DNA from: Actinomycetota bacterium | GTDB taxonomy: Bacteria > Actinomycetota > Actinomycetes > Mycobacteriales > HKI-0501 | Direction of reading: 5' to 3' | Assembly (NCBI GenBank): GCA_030840805.1 | Contig: JAVEDU010000021.1 | Location: forward strand, 13,699 to 37,698 | Length of the DNA stretch: 24,000 nt | Shown: in pieces, positions 10,142 to 23,667 of the stretch | Numbering within the stretch: the stretch's first letter is position 1 | Layout: each line of letters begins with the position of its first letter | Notes under the pieces: generated by a model | What the model was told of the DNA's origin: nothing | The model's input: only the letters and a program-made list of their open reading frames with translations | Databases searched by the model: none | Program-made: the position numbers and the translations under genes

Positions 10142-11800
10142 ATGAGCTCGACAACGACGGGCCTGATCTTCATCGTCTCTCTGCTGGTCGCCCTCGTGGC
10201 GGTATATCGGCCGTTCGGTGACTACATGTACCGGGTGTTCACGTCCGCGAGGCACTGGCGGGTGGAGCGGGGCATGTACCGGCTGGTGGGGGTCGATCCG
10301 GACGGTGAGCAGTCCTGGGGCGTGTACGCACGGAGCGTGCTGGCCTTCTCCGCGGTGTCGGTGTTGTTCCTGTACGGGTTCCAGCGTCTGCAGAACCACC
10401 TGTGGCTGTCGCTGGGGTTCCCGTCGGTGGAGCCGGGGCAGGCCTGGAACACCGCCGTGAGCTTCGTGACCAACACCAACTGGCAGTCCTATTCGGGTGA
10501 GTCGACGATGGGCCACCTGGTGCAGATGGCCGGCCTGGCCGTGCAGAACTTCGTGTCCGCCGCGGTGGGCATCGGCGTCGCGGTGGCGCTGGTGCGCGGG
10601 TTCACCCGCAGCCGCACCGACCAGCTCGGCAACTTCTGGGTCGACCTGGTGCGGATCTGCCTGCGGATCCTGCTGCCGGTCGCGGTGGTCGGTGCGGTCG
10701 TGTTCATCGCGGGCGGGATGGTGCAGAACCTGTCCGCCGGCCAGGACGTGCACACCCTGGCCGGGGCGGCCCAGCACATCACCGGCGGTCCGGTGGCCAG
10801 CCAGGAGATCATCAAGGAGTTCGGTACGAACGGTGGCGGCTTCTACAACGCCAACTCCGCGCACCCGTTCGAGAACCCCACCTCCTGGACCAACTGGCTC
10901 CAGATCTTCCTGATCCTGGCGGTCGGGTTCTCGTTGCCGCGTGCGTTCGGCCGGGTGGTCCGCGACAACCGGCAGGGTGTGGCCATCGCCGTCGTCATGG
11001 CTGTCCTGGCGATCGGCAGCGTGCTCACGGTCAACGCCCTGGAGGTGGCCCACCACGGCACGGTGCCGCAGGCGGTGGGCGCGGCGACGGAGGGCACCGA
11101 GACACGGTTCGGTGTCCCGCAGTCGGCCACGTTCGCCTCGGCGACGACGTTGACGTCCACCGGGGCGGTCGACTCGTTCCACGACTCGTACACGGCGCTG
11201 GGCGGGGCCGTTCCGCTGGCAAACATGATGCTCGGTGAGGTGGCACCGGGCGGCACGGGCTCCGGCCTGTACGGCATCCTCGTCCTCGCGGTGATCACGG
11301 TGTTCGTCGCCGGGTTGATGGTGGGGCGGACCCCGGAGTACCTGGGCAAGAAGATCAGCGCCCGGGAGGTCAAGTTCGCGTCGCTGTACTTCCTGACCAC
11401 CCCGACCCTGGTGCTGGTCGGCGCCGCCGCGGCGATGTCGTCGGCCTCGACGCGGGCGTCGATGCTCAACACCGGGCCGCACGGGCTGTCCGAGGTGCTC
11501 TACGCCTACACCTCGGCGGGGAACAACAACGGCTCGGCGTTCGCGGGCCTCGGCGTCAACACGCCCTGGTACAACACCACCCTCGGGCTGGTGATGCTGC
11601 TCGGCCGGTTCCTGCCGATCGTGTTCGTGCTCGGCCTGGCCGGCTCCCTCGCCCGGCAGAACCCGACCCCGGCCTCCGCCGGCACACTCGGTACCCACCA
11701 GCCGCTGTTCGTCGGCATGGTCGTCGGCGTGGTCCTGATCCTCATCGCCCTGACCTACCTGCCCGCTCTCGCGCTCGGCCCACTGGCCGAGGGCCTGTGA
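10142..11800 (+). CDS. kdpA: K+-transporting ATPase subunit A (K+ channel-like subunit)
   Basis: 552-aa polytopic protein with typical KdpA segments (..[10 protein letters not shown]..; ..[20 protein letters not shown]..; ..[17 protein letters not shown]..). Position after kdpF. Confidence 0.97.
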
Positions 11801-14001
11801 ACACGGCCGGAGGGCCTCCCGCCATGTCTGCCACCACGATCGACGCGTTCCCGGCGGCGCGGCCGCCCGCCGGTCCGGGTGGTCCGCGGCGCGTCGCCGG
11901 TGGGCTGCTCGATCCCGCCCAGTTGCTCCGGTCCACGCCGGACGCGCTGCGCAAGCTCAACCCGGTCATGTTGTGGCGCAACCCGGTCATGTTCATCGTC
12001 GAGGTCGGCTCGGTGTTCACCACCGTCCTCGCGGTCCTCCATCCCTCGGTGTTCGCCTGGCTGACCACCCTCTGGCTGTGGCTCACCGTGCTGTTCGCCA
12101 ACCTTGCCGAGGCGGTCGCCGAGGGCCGCGGCAAGGCGCAGGCCGAGACGCTGCGCCGAGCCAAGCACGACGCGATGGCGCGCCGACTGGCCAGCTGGGT
12201 ACCCGGAGCCGACCGGGCGATCGAGGAGGAGCCGGTACCGGCCGCGGAGCTGCAGCTAGGCGACATCGTCGTGGTCGAGGCCGGGCAGACGATCCCCGGC
12301 GACGGGGACGTGATCGACGGCATCGCGAGCGTGGACGAGTCGGCCATCACCGGCGAGTCCGCCCCGGTGATCCGCGAATCCGGCGGCGACCGCAGTGCGG
12401 TCACCGGCGGCACCAGGGTGCTCTCCGACCGGATCATCGTGAAGATCACCCAGAAGCCGGGGGAGAGCTTCATCGACCGGATGATCGCCCTGGTGGAGGG
12501 CGCCAACCGGCAGAAGACCCCCAACGAGATCGCGCTGAACATCCTGCTCGCCGCGCTGACGATCATCTTCCTGCTCGCGGTCGCCACCCTGCAGCCGCTG
12601 GCGATCTACTCCAAGGCGCAGAACCCGGCTGCCCCGAACACCGAGGCACTCACCGGCAACGGCGTCACCGGCATCGTGCTGGTCTCGCTGCTGGTCTGCC
12701 TCATCCCCACCACCATCGGGGCGCTGCTCTCCGCGATCGGCATCGCCGGCATGGACCGCCTGGTCCAGCGCAACGTCCTGGCCATGTCCGGTCGCGCGGT
12801 CGAGGCCGCCGGCGACGTCAACACGCTGCTACTGGACAAGACCGGCACCATCACCCTGGGCAATCGGCAGGCCAGCGAGTTCCTCCCGGTCGACGGCATC
12901 CCCGCCGAGCAGCTGGCGGACGCGGCGCAGCTGTCCAGCCTCGCGGACGAGACTCCGGAGGGCCGCTCCGTCGTCGTCTACGCCAAGACCGCGTACGGGC
13001 TGCGGGAGCGCCAACCCGGCGAACTGGGCCTGGCCACCTGGGTGGCGTTCAGCGCACAGACCCGCATGTCGGGTGTGGACATCAGCGAGGACGGCACCGG
13101 CACCCGGTCGGTACGCAAGGGTGCCGCGGCGGCGGTGATGAAATGGGTCCGGGACAACGGCGGCCGCCCGACCGACGGGATCGGGACGCTGGTCGACGGC
13201 ATCTCTGCCTCCGGCGGCACCCCCCTCGTGGTCGCCGAGCACCTGGCGGGCAGGCCGGCGCGCGCGCTCGGGGTGATCCACCTCAAGGACGTGGTCAAGA
13301 CCGGCATGCGCGAGCGCTTCGAGGAGATGCGCCGAATGGGCATCCATACCGTCATGATCACCGGCGACAACCCTCTCACCGCCAAGGCCATCGCCGAGGA
13401 GGCGGGCGTCGACGACTTCCTCGCCGAGGCCAAGCCCGAGGACAAGATGGCCCTGATCACACGGGAGCAGGAGGGCGGCAAGCTGGTCGCGATGACCGGC
13501 GACGGCACCAACGACGCCCCGGCCCTGGCCCAGGCCGACGTCGGGGTCGCGATGAACACCGGCACCTCGGCGGCAAAAGAAGCCGGGAACATGGTCGACC
13601 TGGACTCCGACCCGACCAAGCTCATCGAGATCGTGGAGATCGGCAAGCAGCTGCTCATCACCCGGGGAGCGCTGACGACGTTCTCCATCGCCAACGACAT
13701 CGCCAAGTACTTCGCGATCATCCCCGCCGTGTTCGCCGCGGTGTACCCGGGTCTGGACACGCTGAACATCATGCGGTTGCACAGCCCGGTCTCCGCGATC
13801 CTGTCCGCGGTGGTCTTCAACGCGCTCGTCATCGTGGCGCTGATCCCGCTCGCGCTGCGCGGAGTCCGATACACGCCGTCCAGCGCGGCGACGATGCTGC
13901 GCCGCAACCTGCTCGTCTACGGCATCGGCGGCATCGTCGCCCCGTTCATCGGCATCAAGCTCATCGACCTGATCGTCCAGTTCGTCCCCGGGATCTCCTG
14001 A
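11797..14001 (+). CDS. kdpB: K+-transporting P-type ATPase subunit B
   Basis: P-type ATPase motifs DKTGTIT, MITGDN and [18 protein letters not shown]. The GTG at 11797 overlaps the kdpA stop (GTGA). An alternative start is ATG 11824. Confidence 0.97.
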
Positions 14002-14891
14002 TGCGTCTACCAGCCTGGCTCGCCCAGCACCTTGCCGCGCTCCGCGCCCTGCTCGTGCTCACGGTCTTGACCGGCATCGTCTACCCGCTGGTCCTGGTCG
14101 GCGTCGCGCAGCTTCCGGGGCTCAAGCACCACGCGGACGGCTCACTGATCACGACCGCCGGCGGCCGAACCGTGGGCAGCGCGATCATCGGACAGTCGTT
14201 CACCGACACGCGCGGTCGTCCGCTCGCGCAGTACTTCCAGTCCCGCCCGTCTGCCGCGGGCAGCGGATACGACCCCACCGCCACCGGCGCGTCCAACCTC
14301 GGACCCGAGAGCGTCGTCGACGTCCTGCCCAACCCCCAGGTGGCAGGTGACCGCGGCAAGCCGAGTCTGCTCACCCAGGTCTGTTCGCGGAGCAGGGCCG
14401 TGGGTGAACTGGAGGGAGTGGACGGTCGCCGGCCGTTCTGCACCACCGGTGGCGTCGGGGCGGTCCTCGCGGTGTTCCACCACGACGGGCTCACCGGCCC
14501 GGTGACCAGGGTGGTCAGCCTCGACGAGGCCTGCCCCGCGCGCCCGTTCCTGGCCCGCTACCAGGGCGTCGAGGTGGAATGCGCGAGGCCCGGCGCGGAC
14601 TACTCCCGCGGCGTCGTCACCCCGATCCGTGGCGACGCACCGGCGCATCCGGTGGTACCGGCGGACGCGGTCACCGCCAGCGGCTCCGGCCTCGACCCGC
14701 AGATCAGCCCCGCGTATGCGAGCGTCCAGGCGGCCCGGGTGGCCAGGGTTCGCGGGGCCTCGGTCGACGCGGTGCGGAGGATGATCGAGGCGCACACGAG
14801 CGGTCGGGCGTTGGGGTTCCTGGGTGAGCCCGCCGTCAACGTGCTCGAACTCAACCTCGCCCTCGACAGCAGGTATCCGTTCCGCGGCTGA
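14001..14891 (+). CDS. kdpC: K+-transporting ATPase subunit C, unusually long (296 aa) because of an internal insertion
   Basis: Last 297 codons of track ORF 11973..14891. The ATG at 14001 overlaps the kdpB TGA (TGATG). KdpC hallmarks: N-terminal TM, GSAIIGQSF, SRPSA, GASNLGP, VTASGSGLDPQISP, NVLELNLALD. Confidence 0.9.
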   Translation: MRLPAWLAQHLAALRALLVLTVLTGIVYPLVLVGVAQLPGLKHHADGSLITTAGGRTVGSAIIGQSFTDTRGRPLAQYFQSRPSAAGSGYDPTATGASNLGPESVVDVLPNPQVAGDRGKPSLLTQVCSRSRAVGELEGVDGRRPFCTTGGVGAVLAVFHHDGLTGPVTRVVSLDEACPARPFLARYQGVEVECARPGADYSRGVVTPIRGDAPAHPVVPADAVTASGSGLDPQISPAYASVQAARVARVRGASVDAVRRMIEAHTSGRALGFLGEPAVNVLELNLALDSRYPFRG

Positions 14892-14936
14892 CGTGGCGGG
14901 AGCAGGCTCAGGGGGGCGCGGGAAGGAGGCGTCCAG

Positions 14937-17618
14937 ATGGCGGGACGTGGGCAGTTGCGCGTCTACCTCGGTGCCGCGGCCGGCGTCGGGAAGACCTACC
15001 GGATGCTCGAAGAGGGCCACCGTCGGCGGGACCGCGGCACCGACGTGGCCGTCGGTTTCGTCGAATGCCACGGACGCCGGTACACCGAGGCGCTCGTCGA
15101 GGGGCTGCCGGTGACACCCCGGCGGACGATCAGCTACCGGGGGGCGTCGTTCACCGAGATGGACCTCGACGCGGTGCTTTCCCGCCGCCCCCAGGTCGCG
15201 CTGGTCGACGAGCTTGCGCACACCAACGTGCCCGGCTCGTCGCACGCCAAGCGCTGGCAGGACATCCAGGCGCTCCTGGATGCCGGTATCACCGTGATCA
15301 CGACCGTCAACATCCAGCACCTGGAGTCCCTCAACGACGTCGTCGCGCAGATCACCGGGTTGCCGCAGCGGGAGACCGTCCCGGACAGTGTGGTGCGCCA
15401 GGCCGATCAGATCGAGCTGGTCGACATGACGCCCGAGGCGCTGCGCCGGCGCATGGTGCACGGCAACATCTACGGCCCGGAGAAGGTCGTCGCCGCCTTG
15501 GGGCACTACTTCCGGGTCGGCAACCTCACCGCGCTACGCGAGCTGGCCCTGCTGTGGGTGGCCGACAAGGTGGACGAGGAACTCGACCGCTACCGCGCCG
15601 AGCATCACATCACCCGCACCTGGGAGACCAGGGAACGCGTCGTCGTCGCACTGACCGGCGGCTCTGAGGGTGAGACCCTCATCCGCCGGGCTGCGCGGAT
15701 CGCCGCCCGGACCAAGGGCGCGGATCTGCTGGCCGTGCACGTGGCCCGCAACGACGGGCTCGCCGGCGCCGACCCGGCGCACCTGGCCCGGCAGCGGGCC
15801 CTGCTGGAAAGCCTCGGCGGCACCTACCACCAGGTCATCGGTGGCGATGTTCCCACCGCGCTGCTGGACTTCGCCCGTGGCGTCAACGCCACCCAGCTCG
15901 TTCTCGGCGCCAGCCGCCGCGGGCGGGCCGCGCAGATCTTCGCACCGGGCGTCGGGGTCACGACCACCGCCGGGTCCGGCTCGATCGACGTGCACCTCGT
16001 CACCCACGAACAGGTCAATCGGGGCCGGCGGGCCGTCACGTTGACCCGCGGGCTGACCCGCGCCCGTCGGATCGCCGGGTTCGCCGTCACCGCTCTCGGT
16101 CTGCCTCTGCTCACCGTCGTCCTCACGCAGTTCCGGGGCGCGTTGACGCTGCCCAGCGACTTCCTGCTGTACCTCGGCGCCGTCGTGGCTGTTGCGCTGG
16201 TCGGCGGCCTGTACCCGGCGCTGGCCGCCGCGCTCGCCGGGTTCGCGTTGCTCAATTGGTACTTCGTCCCGCCCTTCCACCAGTGGACCATCGTCGACCG
16301 GGAGAACATCCTCGCCCTGGTCGTGTTCCTGGCCGTCGCCACCGCCGTCAGCACGGTCGTCGATCTGTCCGCACGGCGCACCAGCGAGGCCGCCCGTGCT
16401 CGCGCACAGGCCGAAACCCTGTCCACGCTGGCGGGCAGCGTGCTGCGCGGTAGCCGCCCGCTGCCGGCACTGCTCGACCAGGTCCGGGAAACCTTCGGGC
16501 TCACCGGTGTCACGCTGCTCGAACGCCGACCCGACACCCCGTCCGGCCCGGACCTGCAGCACGACCCGGCGGCCTGGCGGGTCGCCGCCGCGGTGGGCGA
16601 ACAGCCCTGCCTCACGCCCGCCGAGGGTGACGCCGACGTGCCTGTGGACGACGACCTCCGCCTCGTCCTCCACGGACACCCACTGCCCGCAGCGGACCGG
16701 CGGGTGATCGAGGCGTGTGCCGCCCAGGCGGCCGTCGCGCTGCGCCAGGAACGCCTGGAAGAGCGCGCCGCCGCCGTGGGCCCGCTCGCCGAGGTCGACC
16801 GGCTGCGCACCGCCCTGCTCAGGTCGGTCAGCCATGACCTGCGCAGCCCGCTGGCCTCGGCCAAGGCCGCCGTCGACAGCCTCCGCGGCGACATCGAGTT
16901 CAGCGACGAAGACCGGCGGGAACTGCTCGACACCGCCGAGGACTCGCTGGCCCGGCTCGGCCGCCTGGTGGAGAACCTGCTCGACATGAGCAGGCTGCAG
17001 GCCGGCGCACTGGCCATGGCCCCGCAGCTGATCAGCCTCGCCGAAGCCGTCCCGCGAGCCGTGGACGACCTCGGTGAGGCCGGCCGGAACGTCCGCATCC
17101 AGATCTCCGACGACCTCCCCGACATCAACGCCGACCCCGCACTGCTCGAACGCGCTCTGGCCAACCTGCTGACCAACGCCCTGCGCTACAGCGCACCCGG
17201 CGAACCACCGTTGATCACCGCGAGCGAACACCTCGATCGCGTCGAGGTCCGCGTCGTCGACCGCGGTCCGGGCGTGCCCGCCACCGAGTGGGACCGCATC
17301 TTCTTGCCCTTCCAACGCCTCGGCGACTGCGACAACGCCACCGGCGTCGGTCTCGGCCTCGCCCTTGCCCGCGGCCTGATCGAAGCCATGGGCGGCACCC
17401 TCACGCCCGAGGCCACCCCCGGCGGCGGGCTGACCATGGCGATCGGCCTGCCCGTCGCCGAACCCACCGACGCCGGACTCGACCAGGCCGCCGACCCCGC
17501 CATCCTGAATCGCCTCGACCACTGGCGGATCGGCCCGAACAGGCAGGACGAACCGGAGGGGCAGGGTGCGCAGGCGGACGTCCGCATCGAGCCGACACCC
17601 GGCGGGGCGACCTCATGA
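14937..17618 (+). CDS. kdpD: Sensor histidine kinase KdpD (N-terminal KdpD/Usp domains, 4 TM, GAF-like, HisKA/HATPase)
   Basis: 893 aa. Begins GQLRVYLGAAAGVGKTY (KdpD P-loop), then ..VDELAHTN.. and ..TTVNIQHLESLND... H-box SVSHDLRSPL, N-box LLTNALRYS, G-boxes DRGPGV and GVGLGLA. GGAAGGAGG at 14921-14929. Confidence 0.95.
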   Translation: MAGRGQLRVYLGAAAGVGKTYRMLEEGHRRRDRGTDVAVGFVECHGRRYTEALVEGLPVTPRRTISYRGASFTEMDLDAVLSRRPQVALVDELAHTNVPGSSHAKRWQDIQALLDAGITVITTVNIQHLESLNDVVAQITGLPQRETVPDSVVRQADQIELVDMTPEALRRRMVHGNIYGPEKVVAALGHYFRVGNLTALRELALLWVADKVDEELDRYRAEHHITRTWETRERVVVALTGGSEGETLIRRAARIAARTKGADLLAVHVARNDGLAGADPAHLARQRALLESLGGTYHQVIGGDVPTALLDFARGVNATQLVLGASRRGRAAQIFAPGVGVTTTAGSGSIDVHLVTHEQVNRGRRAVTLTRGLTRARRIAGFAVTALGLPLLTVVLTQFRGALTLPSDFLLYLGAVVAVALVGGLYPALAAALAGFALLNWYFVPPFHQWTIVDRENILALVVFLAVATAVSTVVDLSARRTSEAARARAQAETLSTLAGSVLRGSRPLPALLDQVRETFGLTGVTLLERRPDTPSGPDLQHDPAAWRVAAAVGEQPCLTPAEGDADVPVDDDLRLVLHGHPLPAADRRVIEACAAQAAVALRQERLEERAAAVGPLAEVDRLRTALLRSVSHDLRSPLASAKAAVDSLRGDIEFSDEDRRELLDTAEDSLARLGRLVENLLDMSRLQAGALAMAPQLISLAEAVPRAVDDLGEAGRNVRIQISDDLPDINADPALLERALANLLTNALRYSAPGEPPLITASEHLDRVEVRVVDRGPGVPATEWDRIFLPFQRLGDCDNATGVGLGLALARGLIEAMGGTLTPEATPGGGLTMAIGLPVAEPTDAGLDQAADPAILNRLDHWRIGPNRQDEPEGQGAQADVRIEPTPGGATS

Positions 17619-18292
17619 CCCGGGTGCTCATCGTCGACGACGAACCACAGATCCTCCGCACCCTTCAGATCAACCTGCACGCCCGCCGGTACGAGGTCAT
17701 CACCGCCGCCGACGGCGCCCAGGCGCTGCACGCCGCGGCGACCCGCCACCCCGACCTGGTCGTGCTCGATCTGGGCCTCCCCGACCTCGATGGCGTCGAG
17801 GTCGTCCGCAAGCTGCGCTCCTGGACCCCGGTCCCGATCGTGATCCTCTCCGGACGCAGCGACAGCGCCGGAAAGGTCGCCGCCCTCGATGCCGGCGCCG
17901 ACGACTACGTCACCAAACCCTTCGGTATCGACGAACTCTTTGCCCGGATCCGTGCCGTCACCCGCCGGTTGGCAAGCACCGACCCACCCCCGCGAGCCCG
18001 CATCGGCCGCCACACCGTCGACGCCGCCAACCGGCTGGTCCATGCGGACGACGGCACCACCGTTCACCTCACCCCGATGGAATGGCAGCTCCTCGACGTC
18101 CTGATCCGCAACCCCGGCAAACTCGTCAGCCAGCGCCAGCTCCTCCAGGAGGTCTGGGGACCCGCGTACCGCACCGAGACGGACTATCTCCGCCAGTACC
18201 TGAAGCACCTGCGCCGCAAGCTCGAGGACGATCCCAGCCGCCCGCGCCACCTGCTCACCGAACCTGGCATGGGCTACCGGTTCCAGCCCTGA
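17615..18292 (+). CDS. kdpE: OmpR-family response regulator KdpE
   Basis: 225 aa. Receiver domain (RVLIVDDEPQI..DLVVLDLGLPDLDG..DDYVTKPF) and winged-helix output (LTPMEWQLLDVL..GYRF). The ATG at 17615 overlaps the kdpD stop (ATGA). Confidence 0.95.
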   Translation: MTRVLIVDDEPQILRTLQINLHARRYEVITAADGAQALHAAATRHPDLVVLDLGLPDLDGVEVVRKLRSWTPVPIVILSGRSDSAGKVAALDAGADDYVTKPFGIDELFARIRAVTRRLASTDPPPRARIGRHTVDAANRLVHADDGTTVHLTPMEWQLLDVLIRNPGKLVSQRQLLQEVWGPAYRTETDYLRQYLKHLRRKLEDDPSRPRHLLTEPGMGYRFQP

Positions 18293-18301
18293 CGGGACGG
18301 C

Positions 18302-18469
18302 TACTGCGGTCCCTCCGCCAGCGGGTCGAGCCCGAGGACCAGGACGAAGCCGAGCGTCCGGAGGTGCTGGCCGTCGACGTCGCGGCCGACGTGGAGCGAC
18401 ACGACCCAGTCCACCGGCACCGCGACCTTGCGCTGCCGGGTCGGCTGGGAAGATCGCAGGATGCGCACG
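18302..18469 (-). CDS. Orphan 55-codon ORF or 3' gene remnant between kdpE and smpB (..[43 protein letters not shown])
   Basis: About 52 of 55 third positions are G/C, far above background, in a stretch that is intergenic on the plus strand. The only start is a GTG at 18467-18469, which overlaps the smpB start by 9 nt. The stop is TAG at 18302-18304, 9 nt from the kdpE stop. Not in the ORF track (<60 aa). Confidence 0.3.
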
Positions 18470-18931
18470 CCCGAGCCCGAGCAGGTGGTGGCCCGAAACC
18501 GGAAGGCCCGCCACGACTACCACCTCGAAGGTTCGTGGGAGGCCGGGATCGTGCTGGTCGGCACCGAGGTGAAGTCGCTCCGTGCCGGTCGTGCTTCGCT
18601 GGTCGACGGTTTCGTCGACATCGACGGTGGCGAGGCGTGGATGCTCGCGGTGCACATCCCGTCGTACGCCCAGGGGACGTGGACCAACCACGCGAGCCGG
18701 CGCAAGCGCAAGCTGCTGCTGCACCGCTCGGAGATCGAGAAGCTCGAGCGTCGCGTTCGCGAGAGCGGACTGACGATCGTCCCGTTGAGCCTGTACTTCC
18801 GCGGGGGGCGGGCGAAGGTGGAGATCGCCCTTGCCCGCGGGAAGAAGACGTGGGACAAGAGGCAGGCGCTCGCCGAAAGGCAGGCGACCCGCGAGGCCGA
18901 GCAAGCGGTCGGTCGTCGCCTCAGGGCATGA
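18461..18931 (+). CDS. smpB: SsrA-binding protein SmpB
   Basis: The 156-aa product aligns by eye with mycobacterial SmpB (..[32 protein letters not shown]...HIP.Y..G.WTNH..RR.RKLLLHR.EI..L......[24 protein letters not shown]). Start taken at ATG 18461 rather than the track start at 18428. Confidence 0.93.
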
Positions 18932-19007: not shown

Positions 19008-20068
19008 CTACGGCGGGGCCCTGCTACCTCGCCACAGGACCTCGAGGTCGTGACCTCGACCCGTGCGCAGCCCCGGAGCCGGAGCCTCCGTGCCCCGGTA
19101 CGCGCATGTTCGCCCCGGTCGGCGGGCCCGCAGACCCACCCCACCTTCCAGCCGGTCCCCGAGAAGGCCTTCGGCCGAGGCGCCGTCCGGGGACACCGCG
19201 GGCTCGGTCAAGCCGAAGCCTGGCTCGGCGGCGAGGATGACCGGCGTGCCGCCGGCGAAGGACCGCGCCACCAGGGTGGAACCGCCCCCTCACCTGAGGT
19301 GCTCATCGTTCTGGACCACCTCGGCGGACGCTATCCGCACCGTCACCTCGGCCGACTCGGAATCCTCACCGGCCGCGGCCGCGGTCACGGCCGCGACCGT
19401 GTAGGCGTACTCCGCATCGGACACGAGTCCCCGGTCCACGCACACCGCACCGTTGCCGATGCTCGTCCGGACCCCGTACCCGGGCATGTCGGTGGTCCAG
19501 TCGTCGGTCCCGGGCGCGGTGTCGGACGGGACCGTCACGCTGACCGTGCGGCCCGACGGATCCGTGCCGTCGAGGGTGACCGCACCGCCGCCCGGCCTGA
19601 CCACCTTGTGGCCGCTGCGCCGGGCGTCGACGTTCCGGTGTACTCGCCTCACGACAGGTGCCGCAGCTCGACGGCCATCGCCGTCACCGCGCCCCGCCCG
19701 GGGTCGGCGGTGGGCCGTGTGACGGTGCCGACCGCGGAGCGGGCGCCCGGTCCGCCCACGCCCACAGCGATCGCCGAATACTCGGCGGTGGCCCCCGCAG
19801 CCAGCCCTGCGTCGACCGCGATCGACGTGGCGGTGCGCACCAGCGTCCAATCGGTCGCGCCGGGCGCGCGGCGGTACAGCTCGTAGCTCGTCGCGGTGGC
19901 GGGACCGGACCACCGGAGCCCGGCGCCACCTTGGGTCGGGAAGAAGGCCGGCGCGGACGGCGTCGCCGGCGGCTCGACGCCCTGCCCGCTCAGGCCGATC
20001 CCACGCCAGCCACGCGGGTGGCCCGGCAGGGGAACCTCCACGCGGGTGGTGCGCAAGGCGGTGTGCTG
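19008..20068 (-). pseudogene. Degraded gene for a secreted multi-domain protein (two FN3/Ig-like modules followed by a PD40/beta-propeller-like segment), N-terminally truncated
   Basis: High third-position G/C in frame X from 20068 to ~19650 (..PSAPAFFPTQGGAGLRWSGPATATSYELYRRAPGATDWTLVRTATSIAVDAGLAAGATAEYSAIAV..). It then moves to frame Y (..VTLDGTDPSGRTVSVTVPSDT..AEYAYTVAAVTAAAAGEDSESAEVTV..). Frame Y has an in-frame TGA at 19290-19292 and continues as ..GGTPVILAAEPGFGLTEPAVSPDGASAEGLL... No N-terminus or signal peptide is present. Confidence 0.45.
19042..19059. terminator. Short palindrome/hairpin TCGAGGTC-GT-GACCTCGA between smpB and the minus-strand remnant
   Basis: Inverted repeat seen directly in the sequence. 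There is no U-tract, so a terminator role is only a guess. Confidence 0.2.
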
Positions 20069-20073
20069 TAGCG

Positions 20074-20495
20074 GTGGGCCCGGTGGTGCGGCGCATCGGC
20101 GCGGGCACCGTGACGGCGGCGGGTTCGCTGGCGCTGGCAGGAAGTGACGCCTGGTTGGCCGGCACGGTCGACGGAGGGTCGGGCTACGCGACGTCGTTGC
20201 TGCCTGCCGGGCTGCTCTCCGGTATCGGGATCGGTGTCGCCCTCCCGGCCCTGATGGGCGCGGGCACGGCGGCGGCCCTCCCGGCACCGTGGCTCTCGAC
20301 GGGCGCAGCGGTGCTCACCATGGTGCGTCAGATCGGGTTCGTGGTGGGGTGTCGGTCCTCGTCGGCGTGCTCGGCGGCCCCCTCGACGGCTGCCGCGGTC
20401 CGCGGCGCGTTCCAGCGTGGGGCTGGATGCTGACGGCCGCGGAGGCCGTGGCGCCTCTCCCCGGCCTCCGCGGTCGCGCTCACCTCGTCGGATAG
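20074..20495 (+). pseudogene. C-terminal fragment (last ~3-4 TM helices) of an MFS/DHA2-type transporter, with frameshifts
   Basis: ..LLPAGLLSGIGIGVALPALMGAGTAAALPAPWLSTGAAVLTMVRQIGFVVG then, after a frame change, VSVLVGVLGG.. This resembles the TM13-14 region of 14-TM drug-efflux MFS proteins. The ~400 N-terminal residues are absent. Frame changes coincide with a G-run (20346-20349) and a C-run (20388-20392). Confidence 0.5.
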
Positions 20496-20684
20496 CGACC
20501 GGTCACGTCGCGCGGGGTACCGGTGTCGGACACGTGATCCAGCTATGGCGTCCGTCGGTGACGGCTGGTGCCCTGAGGTACACGCCGCTGCGGTATCCGA
20601 CGTGCCGGCCAGCCCTCCCACAGGTGTGCACGGATGCGGGGCGCTCCAGAAGACCGATCACGGCGTACGAAAAGGGGAGAGCCA

Positions 20685-21317
20685 ATGTTCGGCCGCATCG
20701 TGGACGATACAGGATCCCTCGACATGTTCCGGAGGACGTTCGGGCCCCTGTCGGGCAGCACCGTCAGCGACGAGTACTTCTCCCGGTCGCGAGTTCGCGC
20801 CTTCTTCGATCGCGCCGGCGACACGGTCGGCGGTTACATCGTCAACGGGACACCACCGTTCCGACACCTCGCCTACATCCCGGACGACCAGCGGCACGGT
20901 CTGCCCCTGGACCGGGCCCAGAGGATCGCCGAGGTGACCTGCATCTGGATGGTCCCGCACGGACGTGGCCCGCTGCTGCGGTACCGGATCTACGGCCGGG
21001 TCGTCCTGGACGCGGTGCGGTCCCGCTGCGTCCTCTTCCTCGGCGGGACGACGACCCCGAAGGTGCGGCAGGTCCAGCAGCAACTCATGCGGCACGACCT
21101 TTGGCACGGCGTCGACGTCCACTCACGAGAGCGGTGGGTGTACTACGCGTTGCGCCGCGAAATGGCAGCGGTCTTTCTCGCGGAACTGACAAAGACGGCG
21201 ATCTCGGTACTCCTCGGTCGTCGACGGCGCCGGACCGGCCCACGCCGGCACGGCGCCGCCGCGCCCGTACCGGTGAAGGACGCCGGAGCTCGGACAACCC
21301 CGTCCGGGAGGCACTGA
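20685..21317 (+). CDS. Hypothetical 210-aa protein of unassigned family, first gene of the mutase cassette; Arg-rich disordered C-terminal tail
   Basis: ATG at 20685 with AAAGGGGAGAG at 20671-20681. Good codon bias. The TGA at 21315-21317 overlaps the next ATG (TGATG). A globular ~175-aa part (..FFDRAGDTVGGYIVNG..IAEVTCIWMVPHGRGPLLRYRIYGRVVLDAV..LFLGGTTTPKVRQVQQQLM..WVYYAL) is followed by GRRRRRTGPRRHG... It shows only a weak, unverified resemblance to GNAT-like acyltransferases. Confidence 0.7.
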   Translation: MFGRIVDDTGSLDMFRRTFGPLSGSTVSDEYFSRSRVRAFFDRAGDTVGGYIVNGTPPFRHLAYIPDDQRHGLPLDRAQRIAEVTCIWMVPHGRGPLLRYRIYGRVVLDAVRSRCVLFLGGTTTPKVRQVQQQLMRHDLWHGVDVHSRERWVYYALRREMAAVFLAELTKTAISVLLGRRRRRTGPRRHGAAAPVPVKDAGARTTPSGRH

Positions 21318-21802
21318 TGACGATCATCGCGGAGCCGTCGCTCCCCACCGCCACCGTCAGCCGTCCGGGTCGCCGCCTGCGGATCATCGTGAACAGTGTC
21401 GCCTCCGACTCGCACACCTGGAACCTGGTGTATCTCCCGCTCCTCATGGAGGGGATGGGGCACCGGGTGCGCAACCTCGGGGCGTGCGTGCCCGACGAGC
21501 TCCTGGTGGCGGAGTGCCGACGGCAGCGTCCCGACCTCGTGGTCGTGAGCAGTGTCAACGGACACGGCCACGTCCAGGGGACGCGCCTCATCCGGCAACT
21601 GTGCGCGTGCGACGAGCTCCGCGGCGTCCCGGTGGTGATCGGCGGCAAGCTCGGCGTCGCCGGCCTCGGCGGCGACCACTACGCGGATGGCCTGATGGCG
21701 GCCGGGTTCGCCGCGGTCTTCGCCGGCGACGCCGACGCTGATGTCGACGACTTCAGCGCCGATGTGCGGTCACTGTCGGTACAGATGGCCGTCGGGTGGT
21801 GA
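21317..21802 (+). CDS. Cobalamin-binding small subunit of a glutamate mutase-like enzyme (MutS/GlmS-type sigma subunit), with atypical DxHxxN motif
   Basis: The 161-aa product aligns by eye with Clostridium MutS: IIVNSVASDSHTWN vs IVLGVIGSDCHAVG; LVVVSSVNGHG vs ILVSSLYGQG; VVIGGKLGV vs LYVGGNIVV. It has a ~20-aa N-terminal extension. Confidence 0.85.
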   Translation: MTIIAEPSLPTATVSRPGRRLRIIVNSVASDSHTWNLVYLPLLMEGMGHRVRNLGACVPDELLVAECRRQRPDLVVVSSVNGHGHVQGTRLIRQLCACDELRGVPVVIGGKLGVAGLGGDHYADGLMAAGFAAVFAGDADADVDDFSADVRSLSVQMAVGW

Positions 21803-23085
21803 GCGCCTACGCCGGGGAGACGGCGGTCGAGGCGCGGACCAGCTTCGGGGACTTCGTGGCGCGGGCGCACCGGTCGGGCCGGCTCGTCGTACAGCCGCGG
21901 ATGGGGTTCGCCCCGCCTGGTGAGATGCGGGCTGGCCTCCTGGCCACCAAGGGAGCCGCCGCCCTCACGGCCGGGACGATCACCCTGGACAGCTACACCC
22001 GGACCGGCGACCACGCCGCCGCCCGCCGTGCCCTGGCCGGCGGTACCGCGCTCAACGGGTACCCGCTCGTGTCCCACGGGGCCGCCACCACCCGGGCGGT
22101 GCTGACCGGGGTCCGGGACGGGTCGTTCCCGGTGCAGGTCCGTCACGGCTCGCCGGACCCCCGTGACATCGTCGCGCAGTTCGCGGAGTCGGGACTCGAC
22201 GCCACCGAGGGTGGTCCGGTCTCGTACTGCCTCCCGTACGGGCGTACTCCGCTGCGAGTCGCCGTCGACAACTGGGCGCGCTGTACCGAGATGCTCGCCG
22301 GACTGCAAGAGCGCGGACCGGAGCCCCACCTCGAGAGCTTCGGCGGCTGCCTGCTCGGCCAGCTCTGCCCGCCGAGCATCCTCGTGGCGACCTCCGTCCT
22401 CGAAGGCGTGTTCTTCCGGCAGCACGGGATGCGGAGCGTCTCGCTCAGCTATGCCCAGCAGACCAACGCGGTGCAGGACGAGGAGGCCCTGCGCGCCCTC
22501 CGCCGGCTCGCCGGTGAGGTGCTGGCGGACATCGACTGGCATGTTGTGCTCTACGCGTACATGGGGGTGTACCCCAGCAGCCGCCACGGTGCGCTTCGCC
22601 TGCTCGCCGACGCGGCACGGCTCGCGGTCCGCGGCGGTGCGGCGCGGCTGATCGTGAAGACGGCCGCGGAGGCGCACCGCATCCCCACCGTCGCGGAGAA
22701 CGTGGAGGCGCTGGAGGTGGCGGCGGAGAGCGCGCAGTCCACCGCTCCTGCCCGTACGGCAGTCGCGGAGGACAGCGAGACGTACGCCGAAGCACGAGCG
22801 CTCGTCGATGCGGTGCTCGACCTCGACGACGACACCGGGACGGGGTTGGTCCGCGCCTTCGCGCGGGGATATCTGGACGTGCCCCACTGCCTGCACGCAG
22901 ACAACCGTGGACGGGCGCGGAGCTACCTGGACGACACCGGGCGGCTGCGGTGGGCGGAGTTCGGCAGCGTCCCCATCGCGGACGTCGCGGAGGCGAGGCC
23001 GTCTGCCGAGCTGACCGCGGCAAGCCTGCTGACTGCGCTGGAGTACGTCCGGCGCACTTACGACAGTGGGCCCGCCAGCACGTGA
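21796..23085 (+). CDS. glmE: Glutamate mutase (methylaspartate mutase) epsilon-subunit homologue
   Basis: 429 aa. Matches clostridial GlmE blocks: QPRMG (QPRAG), TLDSYTR (TIDAYTR), LNGYP (LNGFP), VQVRHGSPD (LQARHGTPD), TEGGPVSYCLPY (NEGGGISYNVPY), IVKTAAEAHRIPT (IVKTPHEAIGIPT), RAFARGYLDVP (KAFETGVMDIP). The start is GTG 21796 or, more likely, GTG 21799, which forms GTGA with the S-subunit stop. Confidence 0.9.
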   Translation: MVSAYAGETAVEARTSFGDFVARAHRSGRLVVQPRMGFAPPGEMRAGLLATKGAAALTAGTITLDSYTRTGDHAAARRALAGGTALNGYPLVSHGAATTRAVLTGVRDGSFPVQVRHGSPDPRDIVAQFAESGLDATEGGPVSYCLPYGRTPLRVAVDNWARCTEMLAGLQERGPEPHLESFGGCLLGQLCPPSILVATSVLEGVFFRQHGMRSVSLSYAQQTNAVQDEEALRALRRLAGEVLADIDWHVVLYAYMGVYPSSRHGALRLLADAARLAVRGGAARLIVKTAAEAHRIPTVAENVEALEVAAESAQSTAPARTAVAEDSETYAEARALVDAVLDLDDDTGTGLVRAFARGYLDVPHCLHADNRGRARSYLDDTGRLRWAEFGSVPIADVAEARPSAELTAASLLTALEYVRRTYDSGPAST

Positions 23086-23292
23086 GACGAGGGCTACCGG
23101 CGGTGGCCCGGCCCCCGCGCGCCAAGACCGCGTGCCGCCGCCCGGCCCTGGTCACCGCCCACCGCGCGACGGCCGCCGGGGGACCGGATGGTCCTGCTCG
23201 CCGGGATCCGGCGGGAGGAGCGCCTCTCGGACCCAGTGGGCGGGGGTCATCCGTACCGCCATGCCTCGTGCTGGCTGGCACAGGGCCGGCGG

Positions 23293-23337
23293 CACATCAG
23301 AGCCCCCGCGGTCGTGGACCGTGGGGGCTCTGATGTG
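23293..23337. terminator. 45-nt near-perfect hairpin (CACATCAGAGCCCCC ... GGGGGCTCTGATGTG, with the inner CGGTC/GACCG also paired)
   Basis: A 15-bp perfect outer stem (23293-23307 / 23323-23337) plus a 5-bp inner stem and a 3-nt loop. It lies ~210 nt downstream of the glmE-like stop, in the gap between convergent genes. It could terminate the mutase operon or be a stand-alone structured element. Confidence 0.4.
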
Positions 23338-23617
23338 TCCGAGGGGTGTCTGAGTTCAGGCCATCGTGCACGGATGTCTCGGGACATCGTTCACACCTGG
23401 GCCCGGGGCTGGACGATGGGGATGCCGCAGCGTCCCGGGGCCCTGACCCGGCTGGGTCTCGCGGTCGCCTAGGTGCGCCTCGCGTGGTTGCCACGGGGAC
23501 CGAGGCGTTCCGGCGCGGTCCCGTATGCGGACCGCACGGCTGCCCCATGGCGTTGTCCACGCGTGTCGCGGCCCGTGCCGGGCACCGGCTGCCGGTGAAC
23601 GGACCGGCTGGATGCGC

Positions 23618-23654
23618 GGATGCCCCGGCCCGCGGGGTGCGGGCCGGGGCATCC
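23618..23654 (-). terminator. katG intrinsic terminator-like hairpin (GGATGCCCCGGCC / GGCCGGGGCATCC, extendable to 16 bp)
   Basis: A 13-bp perfect inverted repeat, with 3 further pairs inside, begins 14 nt beyond the katG stop (23668-23670). There is no U-tract, as is common for actinobacterial hairpin-only terminators. Confidence 0.6.
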
Positions 23655-23667
23655 GGACAGGCGGTGC

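What the first reader, a model, noticed from the sequence alone, without database searches (positions are those of the whole stretch)
20685..23085. Orphan three-gene cassette: an unassignable 210-aa protein translationally coupled to a glutamate-mutase-like S/E pair
Seen in the sequence:
- Three ORFs are chained by stop/start overlaps (TGATG at 21315-21319; GTGA at 21799-21802), which implies one operon and probably stoichiometric co-production.
- The E subunit keeps every residue I know to bind glutamate in Clostridium GlmE. These are the 'arginine claw' Arg66/Arg100/Arg149 contexts (QPR, YTR, VRHG) and the Glu171/Tyr177/Tyr181 context (TEGGPVSYCLPY).

From this, glutamate <-> 3-methylaspartate chemistry is plausible.

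None of the usual partners is present in the window:
- no methylaspartate ammonia-lyase or mesaconate-pathway genes (catabolic context)
- no MutL/GlmL-type reactivase
- no PKS/NRPS or decarboxylase (the vicenistatin and friulimicin contexts where actinomycete glutamate mutases are known)

Instead the pair is led by a protein of no recognisable family. The cassette sits between decayed gene fragments and katG.

Inference: the 210-aa protein either consumes or modifies methylaspartate (for example by acylation) or is a new accessory factor for the mutase.
Basis: partly seen in the sequence, partly recalled or inferred. Interest (0 to 1): 0.75.

Follow-up and report, generated by a model that had tools for sequence, protein, structure and literature searches.

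The report
Glutamate mutase pair behind orphan acyltransferase
An intact vitamin-B12-dependent glutamate mutase gene pair of a kind common in actinomycete antibiotic clusters has, in one uncultured soil lineage only, lost its usual partner genes and become joined to a small acyltransferase-fold gene from an uncharacterised family. This is a mildly interesting local rearrangement, not a conserved new system.

Summary
Three + strand genes are chained by stop/start overlaps: ORF1 (20685-21317), a B12-binding S subunit (21317-21802) and a GlmE-like E subunit (21796-23085). E aligns to Clostridium GlmE with all six glutamate-binding residues conserved.

- ORF1 has no Pfam or NCBIfam match, but it is not unassignable. 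It belongs to a family of about 200-aa proteins (194 clusters). Its AlphaFold model (pLDDT 89) has a GNAT fold closest to FeeM, SbzI and the LuxI-type synthases.
- Other family members are never next to mutase genes. Three are fused to PEMT/ICMT methyltransferases.
- S/E belongs to a large actinobacterial clade. There the pair is normally followed by an AsnRS-like and a glutamate-synthase-like gene (streptolydigin-type), or sits in macrolactam PKS clusters.
- None of 80 related E loci has an ORF1 relative.
- The three-gene order exists only in about 7 near-identical contigs from Cryptosporangiaceae MAGs. The right flank varies between them.

E looks intact and under purifying selection.

Best guess (about 0.35): S/E makes 3-methylaspartate and ORF1 N-acylates it. 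Nearly as likely: ORF1 is an unrelated neighbour.

Verdict: new variant of a known kind; modest interest.

The parts
20674..20679 (+). Shine-Dalgarno GGGGAG, 5 nt before the ORF1 ATG
   Evidence: Read directly from the sequence.
20685..21317 (+). ORF1, 210 aa. GNAT-fold acyltransferase-like protein of an uncurated ~200-aa family. The core is residues 1-181, followed by a basic unconstrained tail.
   Evidence: No Pfam, NCBIfam, PADLOC or PHROG hit. 194 cluster representatives at E<=1e-3. AlphaFold2 model pLDDT 89. Foldseek top hits are FeeM 2g0b (2.7e-7) and SbzI 8zt3, with TofI and LasI lower in the list. It keeps the family-invariant G50, E83 and G142. Coding signal 0.67/0.47/0.89.
21317..21802 (+). 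S subunit, 161 aa, cobalamin-binding, with D31-x-H33 (His-on ligand motif). The ATG overlaps the ORF1 TGA by one base.
   Evidence: Pfam PF02310 5.5e-14. Aligns to MutS/GlmS 1cb7_A with D14/H16 matched. All clade-invariant positions are kept, including ASDSHTWNL.
21796..23085 (+). E subunit, 429 aa (428 aa if it starts at 21799), catalytic TIM-barrel subunit of glutamate (methylaspartate) mutase.
   Evidence: Pfam PF06368 8.7e-93. All six GlmE glutamate-binding residues align. 142 of 143 clade columns conserved at >=95% are kept. Population SNPs are 9 synonymous to 3 non-synonymous.
23143..23144 (.). Structural breakpoint 58 nt after the E stop. The sister contigs L015 and L009 continue into a tyrosine-recombinase gene instead of the peroxidase-family (katG) flank.
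   Evidence: blastn alignments end at 23143. Junction sequences compared. Pfam Phage_integrase on the L015 gene.
23293..23337 (.). Strong hairpin (21-nt arms, 95% complementary, 3-nt loop) about 210 nt downstream of E. It may be a terminator or another structure.
   Evidence: the repeat finder I2. The consensus terminator scan found nothing.

Best explanation
Shown:
- S and E form an intact adenosylcobalamin-dependent glutamate mutase of the actinobacterial secondary-metabolism clade. In that clade the pair is normally followed by an AsnRS-like and a glutamate-synthase-like gene.
- In one uncultured Cryptosporangiaceae-related lineage the pair lacks those partners. It has been welded by a one-base stop/start overlap behind a GNAT-fold gene, ORF1.

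Inferred:
- S/E converts L-glutamate to (2S,3S)-3-methylaspartate.
- ORF1 transfers an acyl group from an acyl-carrier-protein or acyl-CoA thioester onto the amino group of that amino acid, as its nearest structural neighbours FeeM and SbzI do. The product would be an N-acyl-3-methylaspartate, possibly membrane-associated.

ORF1 would then replace the usual AsnRS-like consumer of 3-methylaspartate. The arrangement is a recent, lineage-specific operon, not a conserved system.
For: - S/E identity and active site.
- E is intact and under purifying selection: 142 of 143 conserved columns kept; 9 synonymous to 3 non-synonymous SNPs, with the non-synonymous ones at positions 319-327, a stretch where the clade consensus is undefined.
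- ORF1 is intact: it has a coding signal and keeps the family-conserved residues.
- ORF1 fold: pLDDT 89. Best PDB matches are FeeM (an N-acyl amino acid synthase) and SbzI, with the AHL synthases TofI and LasI further down the list. SbzI takes a carrier-protein-tethered acyl donor (PMC13518217).
- ORF1 relatives are linked to PEMT/ICMT membrane methyltransferases, by three fusions and one adjacency. This fits a lipid-like carboxylate product.
- The ORF1 stop lies at the normal family length (210 aa vs 209 and 202) and overlaps the S start exactly. No contig that spans the junction varies there. That points to selected co-translation rather than a random junction.
- No other candidate consumer of 3-methylaspartate lies within about 20 kb upstream or before the contig end.
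Against: - No ORF1 relative accompanies a mutase anywhere else: 0 of 80 E loci, and none of the five ORF1-family loci outside the window lineage.
- No close ORF1 relative was found by pattern scan in 185k reference genomes.
- The trio is seen only in contigs that are ~99% identical to each other. Its conservation therefore carries almost no evolutionary weight.
- ORF1 shows 0 synonymous and 3 non-synonymous population SNPs, including G120D at a Gly kept in the closer homologues. S shows 1 synonymous and 7 non-synonymous. The numbers are small, but they give no sign of constraint.
- The locus is plastic: the right flank has an alternative, integrase-bearing form, and unassignable short ORFs lie upstream.
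- The acyl acceptor and donor are pure inference.
Confidence: 0.35

Rival explanations
1. Accidental neighbour. S/E is functional and supplies 3-methylaspartate to a pathway encoded elsewhere in this fragmentary MAG. ORF1 is a mobile, functionally unrelated GNAT gene, for example a lipoamino-acid synthase acting on an ordinary amino acid, that landed upstream.
For: - ORF1 relatives are solitary genes near membrane or mobile-element genes. They sit next to PEMT, GtrA and IS transposases and a tyrosine recombinase, never next to a mutase.
- The E loci fall into known contexts without ORF1.
- The locus has an alternative right flank with an integrase.
- E is under purifying selection.
Against: The exact one-base stop/start overlap at the natural end of ORF1 is not expected from a random junction. 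No 3-methylaspartate-using genes could be found, but the contig ends about 1.7 kb past E.
Confidence: 0.3
2. Decaying remnant. The trio is what remains of a streptolydigin-type block after a rearrangement deleted the AsnRS-like and glutamate-synthase-like genes. It no longer has a role.
For: - All five genome or contig neighbourhoods of the closest E relatives have the four-gene block, as do 48 of 70 metagenome loci.
- The window E groups with that class in the NJ tree.
- The S and ORF1 polymorphisms are mostly non-synonymous.
- Unassignable short ORFs and a variable flank surround the trio.
Against: - All three reading frames are open in every contig.
- E keeps 142 of 143 conserved columns, which is no worse than the typical clade member: median 1 deviation, and about two thirds of clade members deviate at least as often. 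It has 9 synonymous to 3 non-synonymous SNPs.
- S keeps every clade-invariant residue.
- No remnants of the missing genes are detectable.
Confidence: 0.17
3. ORF1 is a new accessory factor (chaperone or reactivase) for the mutase, standing in for MutL/GlmL.
For: Only the translational coupling.
Against: - ORF1 has a GNAT acyltransferase fold with an invariant Glu on a central strand. It shows no nucleotide-binding or ATPase-like family match.
- Its relatives occur without mutases.
- The related actinobacterial S/E cassettes examined show no such partner.
Confidence: 0.03

Closest known systems
Clostridial glutamate mutase GlmS/GlmE (MutS/MutE), EC 5.4.99.1; PDB 1ccw, 1cb7, 6h9e
   Same: Two-subunit architecture. 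The S subunit carries the DxH His-on cobalamin motif. The E subunit carries all six glutamate-binding residues (R66, R100, R149, E171, Y177, Y181).
   Different: - Scores are far below the NCBIfam equivalog cut-offs.
- The S motif is DxHxxN rather than DxHxxG, across the whole actinobacterial clade.
- There is no MutL gene and no methylaspartase or mesaconate pathway.
- The host is a high-GC actinomycete MAG.
Streptolydigin-type 3-methylaspartate supply block (slgE1-slgE2 mutase with slgE3 glutamate-synthase-like and slgZ AsnRS-like genes; PMC5357945). It is equated here, by domain composition only, with the S-E-tRNA-synt_2-Glu_synthase block of L001, L003 and L011-L013.
   Same: The window S and E are 55-59% and 62-68% identical to the S and E of this block. 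E groups with this class in the NJ tree. S and E overlap at their stop/start in the same way.
   Different: The two downstream genes are absent and have left no remnant. A GNAT-fold gene sits upstream instead. I could not compare directly with the Slg sequences.
Macrolactam starter-unit mutases VinH/VinI and SceL/SceM (PMC5785472)
   Same: These are actinobacterial S/E pairs that make 3-methylaspartate for secondary metabolism.
   Different: Those pairs sit between a PLP decarboxylase and modular PKS genes, as in L053, L057, L063 and L076. They mostly group apart from the window's E in the NJ tree. The window has no PKS.
FeeM N-acyl amino acid synthase (PDB 2g0b) and relatives: SbzI (8zt3) and the LuxI-type AHL synthases TofI and LasI
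   Same: ORF1's model is a single-domain GNAT fold that matches these best (E 2.7e-7 to 5e-5, TM 0.5-0.64). The family alignment shows no conserved Q/RxxGxG CoA loop (read by eye), as in this branch of the superfamily.
   Different: - Sequence identity is 10-16%.
- There is no Pfam FeeM or Acetyltransf hit for the window protein, and only 1 of 40 family members hits each at E~0.01.
- ORF1 has a C-terminal hydrophobic helix plus a basic tail.
- Substrates are unknown.

Membership tests
Glutamate (methylaspartate) mutase, E subunit | Match to Pfam Met_asp_mut_E above the gathering score | tested here: met
   311.7 bits against a cut-off of 26.6
Glutamate (methylaspartate) mutase, E subunit | NCBIfam equivalog TIGR01503 cut-off | tested here: not met
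   188.6 bits against 390.1. This is a divergent actinobacterial clade.
Glutamate (methylaspartate) mutase, E subunit | Glutamate-binding residues R66, R100, R149, E171, Y177 and Y181 of Clostridium GlmE | tested here: met
   All six align identically to 6h9e_B
Glutamate (methylaspartate) mutase, S subunit | B12-binding domain with the DxH(xxG) His-on motif, plus the SxL and GG motifs | tested here: met
   PF02310 5.5e-14. D31/H33 align to D14/H16 of 1cb7_A; SSV and GG are present. The motif Gly is Asn in the whole clade. The NCBIfam equivalog cut-off is not reached (46.8 vs 110).
Glutamate (methylaspartate) mutase | Adenosylcobalamin-dependent interconversion of L-glutamate and 3-methylaspartate | not testable with these tools
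   Needs an enzyme assay
Streptolydigin-type four-gene block (S, E, AsnRS-like, glutamate-synthase-like) | tRNA-synt_2-like and Glu_synthase/FMN_dh genes directly downstream of E | tested here: not met
   tblastn with the L001 and L003 proteins finds nothing in the window. After E there are 58 nt to a breakpoint, then a ~520-nt spacer and the convergent peroxidase-family (katG) gene.
Streptolydigin-type four-gene block (S, E, AsnRS-like, glutamate-synthase-like) | E sequence groups with the E proteins of that block | tested here: met
   Nearest neighbours by distance are block-type loci. The NJ tree places the window among them on a long branch (crude tree, no support values).
Macrolactam (vicenistatin-type) starter-unit cassette | Adjacent PLP decarboxylase, ACP or ligases, and modular PKS | tested here: not met
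   None in the window. These are seen in L053, L057, L063 and L076.
GNAT superfamily, FeeM/LuxI-like branch (ORF1) | GNAT fold | tested here: met
   AlphaFold2 pLDDT 89, pTM 0.79. 252 PDB matches at E<=1e-3; all 50 listed are GNAT-fold acyltransferases or AHL synthases, with FeeM first.
GNAT superfamily, FeeM/LuxI-like branch (ORF1) | Sequence-profile membership (Pfam FeeM PF21926, Acetyltransf_1, Autoind_synth) | tested here: not met
   No hit for the window protein. 1 of 40 relatives hits each of FeeM and Acetyltransf_1 at E~0.01. The PDB profile search is empty.
GNAT superfamily, FeeM/LuxI-like branch (ORF1) | N-acyl transfer to an amino acid from acyl-ACP or acyl-CoA | not testable with these tools
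   Needs an enzyme assay
MutL/GlmL mutase reactivase (ORF1 as accessory factor) | MutL-type ATPase family or fold | tested here: not met
   ORF1 has a GNAT fold and no MutL or ATPase family hit

The most novel reading that the evidence does not exclude
A newly assembled operon in an uncultured Cryptosporangiaceae lineage makes a previously undescribed lipoamino acid, N-acyl-(2S,3S)-3-methylaspartate. ORF1 would be the founding characterised member of a new, Pfam-less family of N-acyl amino acid synthases, whose other members pair with PEMT/ICMT methyltransferases to make N-acyl amino acid methyl esters.
Probability: 0.2. Interest if true: 0.6.

Novelty: new variant of a known kind. Interest (0 to 1): 0.35.

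Why it matters
If the coupling is functional, it would be a third use of actinobacterial glutamate mutase, beside amide or tetramic-acid building blocks and macrolactam starter units. It would also give a first functional handle on an uncurated GNAT family of about 200 clusters that looks lipid-linked.

If the coupling is not functional, the locus is simply a rearranged fragment of a well-known building-block cassette in a plastic chromosomal region.

Either way, the census made here is useful background:
- S lies upstream of E in 67 of 67 loci.
- An AsnRS-like gene lies downstream in 48 of 70.
- Most of the sampled exceptions are in PKS or other biosynthetic contexts.
- ORF1 relatives occur in 0 of 80.

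It shows that an 'orphan' glutamate mutase should first be compared with these two contexts.

Tried and rejected
- **Word-indexed search.** With ORF1 it found only a 99% identical copy. The full HMMER scan was needed to see the family.
- **Single-sequence AlphaFold** was useless (pLDDT 39.5).
- **Profile searches for ORF1.** An ORF1 profile against PDB sequences found nothing. NCBIfam, PADLOC and PHROGs found nothing.
- **The search for related loci with the ORF1 alignments.** It failed for lack of conserved stretches.
- **Remnants of the missing AsnRS-like and glutamate-synthase-like genes** were searched for and not found.
- **tmRNA/tRNA integration site next to smpB.** None is in the window or in L015.
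- **att-like direct repeats** flanking the trio: none convincing.
- **Promoter and terminator consensus scans** were empty.
- **'Decayed fragments' upstream** could not be assigned to any family.
- **Shared mobile element.** The idea that the integrase genes next to L008 and L015 mark one element was rejected; the similarity is only family-level.
- **Flank beyond the window.** The source contig ends about 820 nt past the window, inside the peroxidase-family (katG) gene.
- **Literature.** No mention of N-acyl- or N-acetyl-3-methylaspartate, and no paper pairing 'glutamate mutase' with 'N-acyl amino acid synthase'.
Full report
**Observation**

The window is high-GC DNA (about 0.72). Its proteins match a metagenome-assembled genome labelled 'Actinomycetota bacterium', with a sister MAG labelled 'Cryptosporangiaceae bacterium'.

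- ORF1 runs 20685-21317, behind a GGGGAG ribosome-binding site.
- S runs 21317-21802. Its ATG shares one base with the ORF1 TGA.
- E runs 21796 (or 21799) to 23085. Its GTG start overlaps the S TGA.

Codon-position GC confirms real coding sequence for the ORF1 core (0.67/0.47/0.89), for S and for E. The last ~30 codons of ORF1 carry no frame signal.

S matches Pfam B12-binding and E matches Met_asp_mut_E. Both score well below the NCBIfam equivalog cut-offs for methylaspartate mutase.

In the HMMER alignment to the solved Clostridium enzyme, window residues R35, R69, R116, E138, Y144 and Y148 fall on GlmE R66, R100, R149, E171, Y177 and Y181. S aligns D31/H33 to the cobalt-ligand motif D14/H16. 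The factual part of the finding is confirmed.

**Surroundings**

Upstream lie an alcohol dehydrogenase, an ArsP permease, an HtrA-type protease, an HTH/TPR regulator, kdpABC, kdpDE and smpB. Next come about 1.5 kb with three short ORFs that match no family.

There is no tRNA or tmRNA gene and no Rfam hit. No PKS, NRPS, decarboxylase, methylaspartase or MutL gene is present. The source contig (L014, identical to the window) ends about 820 nt beyond the window inside that gene, so nothing further can be read on that side.

**What ORF1 is**

No curated library recognises ORF1: not Pfam, NCBIfam, PADLOC or PHROGs. A word-indexed search found only a 99% identical copy. It is not an orphan, however.

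An exhaustive HMMER scan found 194 cluster representatives at E<=1e-3. Most are 190-210 aa, and the best are 51% and 49% identical. The family alignment has invariant G50, E83 and G142, plus eight nearly invariant positions. The window protein keeps seven of the eight; the exception is a conservative Leu-to-Phe at position 32.

With that alignment AlphaFold2 gives a confident model (pLDDT 89, pTM 0.79). The single-sequence model was useless.

Foldseek against the PDB returns 252 matches at E<=1e-3, and all 50 listed are GNAT-fold acyltransferases or AHL synthases. Notable matches, with their rank in the list:
- FeeM, an N-acyl amino acid synthase (2g0b; E 2.7e-7; rank 1);
- SbzI (8zt3; rank 2), a GNAT enzyme that takes a carrier-protein-tethered acyl donor (PMC13518217);
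- the acyl-homoserine-lactone synthases TofI (rank 14) and LasI (rank 32).

TM-scores are moderate (0.5-0.64) and identities are 10-16%. This is placement in a fold and a branch of it, not sequence-family membership.

**Context of the ORF1 family**

Three independent cluster representatives are fusions of an N-terminal PEMT/ICMT-type membrane methyltransferase with a C-terminal ORF1 domain. Another member lies directly upstream of a PEMT gene. Another lies next to a GtrA-like membrane protein and IS transposases.

The closest homologue is followed by a convergent tyrosine recombinase. The second closest is followed by PALP and phosphomutase-type genes. None is beside a mutase.

ORF1 ends in a hydrophobic helix followed by an arginine-rich tail. 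Together these point to an acyltransferase that makes a lipid-like carboxylate, such as an N-acyl amino acid. That step is inference.

**What S/E is**

E has thousands of relatives. The nearest outside its own population are 62-68% identical and come from many actinomycete genera.

All five neighbourhoods I opened for the closest relatives show the same block: S, E, a ~330-aa tRNA-synt_2 protein and a ~420-aa Glu_synthase/FMN_dh protein. By domain composition this matches the streptolydigin genes slgE1-slgE2 (mutase), slgZ (asparaginyl-tRNA-synthetase-like) and slgE3 (glutamate-synthase-like), which are described as supplying 3-methylaspartate (PMC5357945). I could not compare the Slg sequences directly.

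A census of 80 metagenome loci encoding E relatives gave:

| Feature | Count |
|---|---|
| S directly upstream of E | 67 of 67 |
| AsnRS-like gene directly downstream | 48 of 70 |
| Glutamate-synthase-like gene downstream | 36 of 50 |
| ORF1-family hit | 0 of 80 |

Among the exceptions I sampled, several sit in macrolactam-type settings. These include an ACP-KS-AT-DH polyketide synthase after E, a PLP decarboxylase before S, and a thioesterase. Others have a P450, a MetRS-like gene with a solute-binding protein, or a glycosyl hydrolase. The macrolactam settings mirror the sceK-sceL-sceM-sceN and vin arrangement (PMC5785472).

In a crude NJ tree the window's E sits on a long branch among the four-gene-block class, not the PKS class. 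The S motif ASDSHTWNL (DxHxxN rather than DxHxxG) is invariant in the clade, so it is not a defect. tblastn finds no trace of the missing AsnRS-like or glutamate-synthase-like genes in the window.

**How widespread and how stable the trio is**

The ORF1-S-E order occurs in the source contig and in seven further contigs: L009, L010 and L015-L019. All are about 99% identical to the window. They come from JGI, Logan and one NCBI MAG. This is one population, so the conservation carries little weight.

In two of them (L015, L009) similarity to the window stops exactly at 23143, 58 nt after the E stop. The flank continues into a tyrosine-recombinase gene, probably truncated, instead of the window's peroxidase-family (katG) flank. 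No flanking direct repeats were found.

Population SNPs:

| Gene | Synonymous | Non-synonymous | Notes |
|---|---|---|---|
| E | 9 | 3 | The three lie at positions 319-327, where the clade consensus is undefined |
| S | 1 | 7 | Plus an in-frame 15-nt insertion in one contig |
| ORF1 | 0 | 3 | Includes G120D at a Gly kept in the closer homologues |

E also keeps 142 of 143 columns that are >=95% conserved in its clade. That is no worse than a typical member. E is therefore clearly maintained. For S and ORF1 the numbers are too small to decide.

**Explanation**

Shown: this is an intact glutamate-mutase pair of the actinobacterial secondary-metabolism clade. It has been stripped of its usual partners and is translationally coupled to a GNAT-fold gene of an uncurated family, in one lineage only, in a plastic region.

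Inferred:
- S/E makes (2S,3S)-3-methylaspartate.
- ORF1 N-acylates an amino acid.
- That amino acid is 3-methylaspartate.

The best argument for the last step is the junction. ORF1 stops at the normal family length (210 aa vs 209 and 202), exactly on the S start codon. E is maintained although its usual consumer gene is gone.

The best argument against is the complete lack of co-occurrence elsewhere.

My probabilities:

| Reading | Probability |
|---|---|
| Functional-operon model | about 0.35 |
| ORF1 as an unrelated neighbour of a still useful S/E | about 0.30 |
| Decaying remnant | about 0.17 |
| Accessory-factor idea | about 0.03 |
| Remainder (for example, an altered substrate) | the rest |

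**Novelty and score**

The mutase pair is a new member of a well-populated, known kind. The gene context is a new, lineage-restricted variant. ORF1's family is uncurated, but its fold is ordinary. No paper in the library mentions N-acyl-3-methylaspartate or pairs 'glutamate mutase' with 'N-acyl amino acid synthase'.

A specialist would find the arrangement mildly curious rather than surprising. The more general by-product is the ORF1 family's link to PEMT/ICMT methyltransferases. I score interest at 0.35.

Noticed in passing
P0143, P0165, P0232 (fusion proteins); L005:8001-9263: ORF1-family domains are fused to the C-terminus of PEMT/ICMT-type membrane methyltransferases in three separate cluster representatives. 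One member lies directly upstream of a PEMT gene. This suggests an uncharacterised two-step pathway, for example N-acyl amino acid synthesis followed by carboxyl methylation.
   Followed up: partly
window 23143; L015:3223-5152; L009:2831-3202: Two sister contigs diverge from the window exactly 58 nt after the E stop. They continue into a tyrosine-recombinase gene (C-terminus apparently truncated or frameshifted) instead of the window's peroxidase-family (katG) flank. No tRNA gene or flanking repeat was found.
   Followed up: partly
L008:1498-1737 (minus strand): The closest ORF1 homologue (P0122, ~50% identical, on a contig of only 58% GC) is also followed by a convergent tyrosine-recombinase gene. 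It is related to the L015 one only at family level.
   Followed up: partly
window 21404-21424 (S residues 30-36) and the S genes of L001, L003, L011-L013: The whole actinobacterial S-subunit clade carries ASDSHTWNL. This is DxHxxN instead of the canonical cobalamin-binding DxHxxG.
   Followed up: partly
L011:1-11745; L013:360-6593: In the nearest genomic relatives the S-E-AsnRS-like-glutamate-synthase-like block is embedded among Lys/Orn N-oxygenase, cupin, MetRS-like, DAO-type oxidase and P450 genes. From memory only, this resembles hydrazine (N-N bond) forming machinery.
   Followed up: no
window 23293-23337, 23617-23655, 20434-20476: Three strong GC-rich hairpins: 21-nt arms at 95% complementarity; 17-nt perfect arms just 3' of the peroxidase-family (katG) gene; and 18-nt arms at 89% at the end of the unassigned ORF 20074-20433. 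They are probably terminators without a T-run, which the consensus scan does not detect.
   Followed up: no
window 18428-18931: smpB is present (Pfam SmpB 2.9e-58), but no tmRNA gene is detected anywhere in the window by ARAGORN or Rfam.
   Followed up: yes
window 19290-20433: Three short ORFs (two on the minus strand, one on the plus strand) have shifting frame signal and no family hit. There are only non-significant hints to an Fn3-like protein and to membrane transporters. They may be decayed fragments or lineage-specific genes.
   Followed up: partly
window 10142-18292: A complete kdpABC-kdpDE potassium-uptake locus with overlapping gene junctions. It is ordinary.
   Followed up: yes
L010:1-34: The first 34 nt of this Logan contig match the window in inverted orientation (19886-19853). 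This is probably an assembly artefact at a contig end.
   Followed up: no
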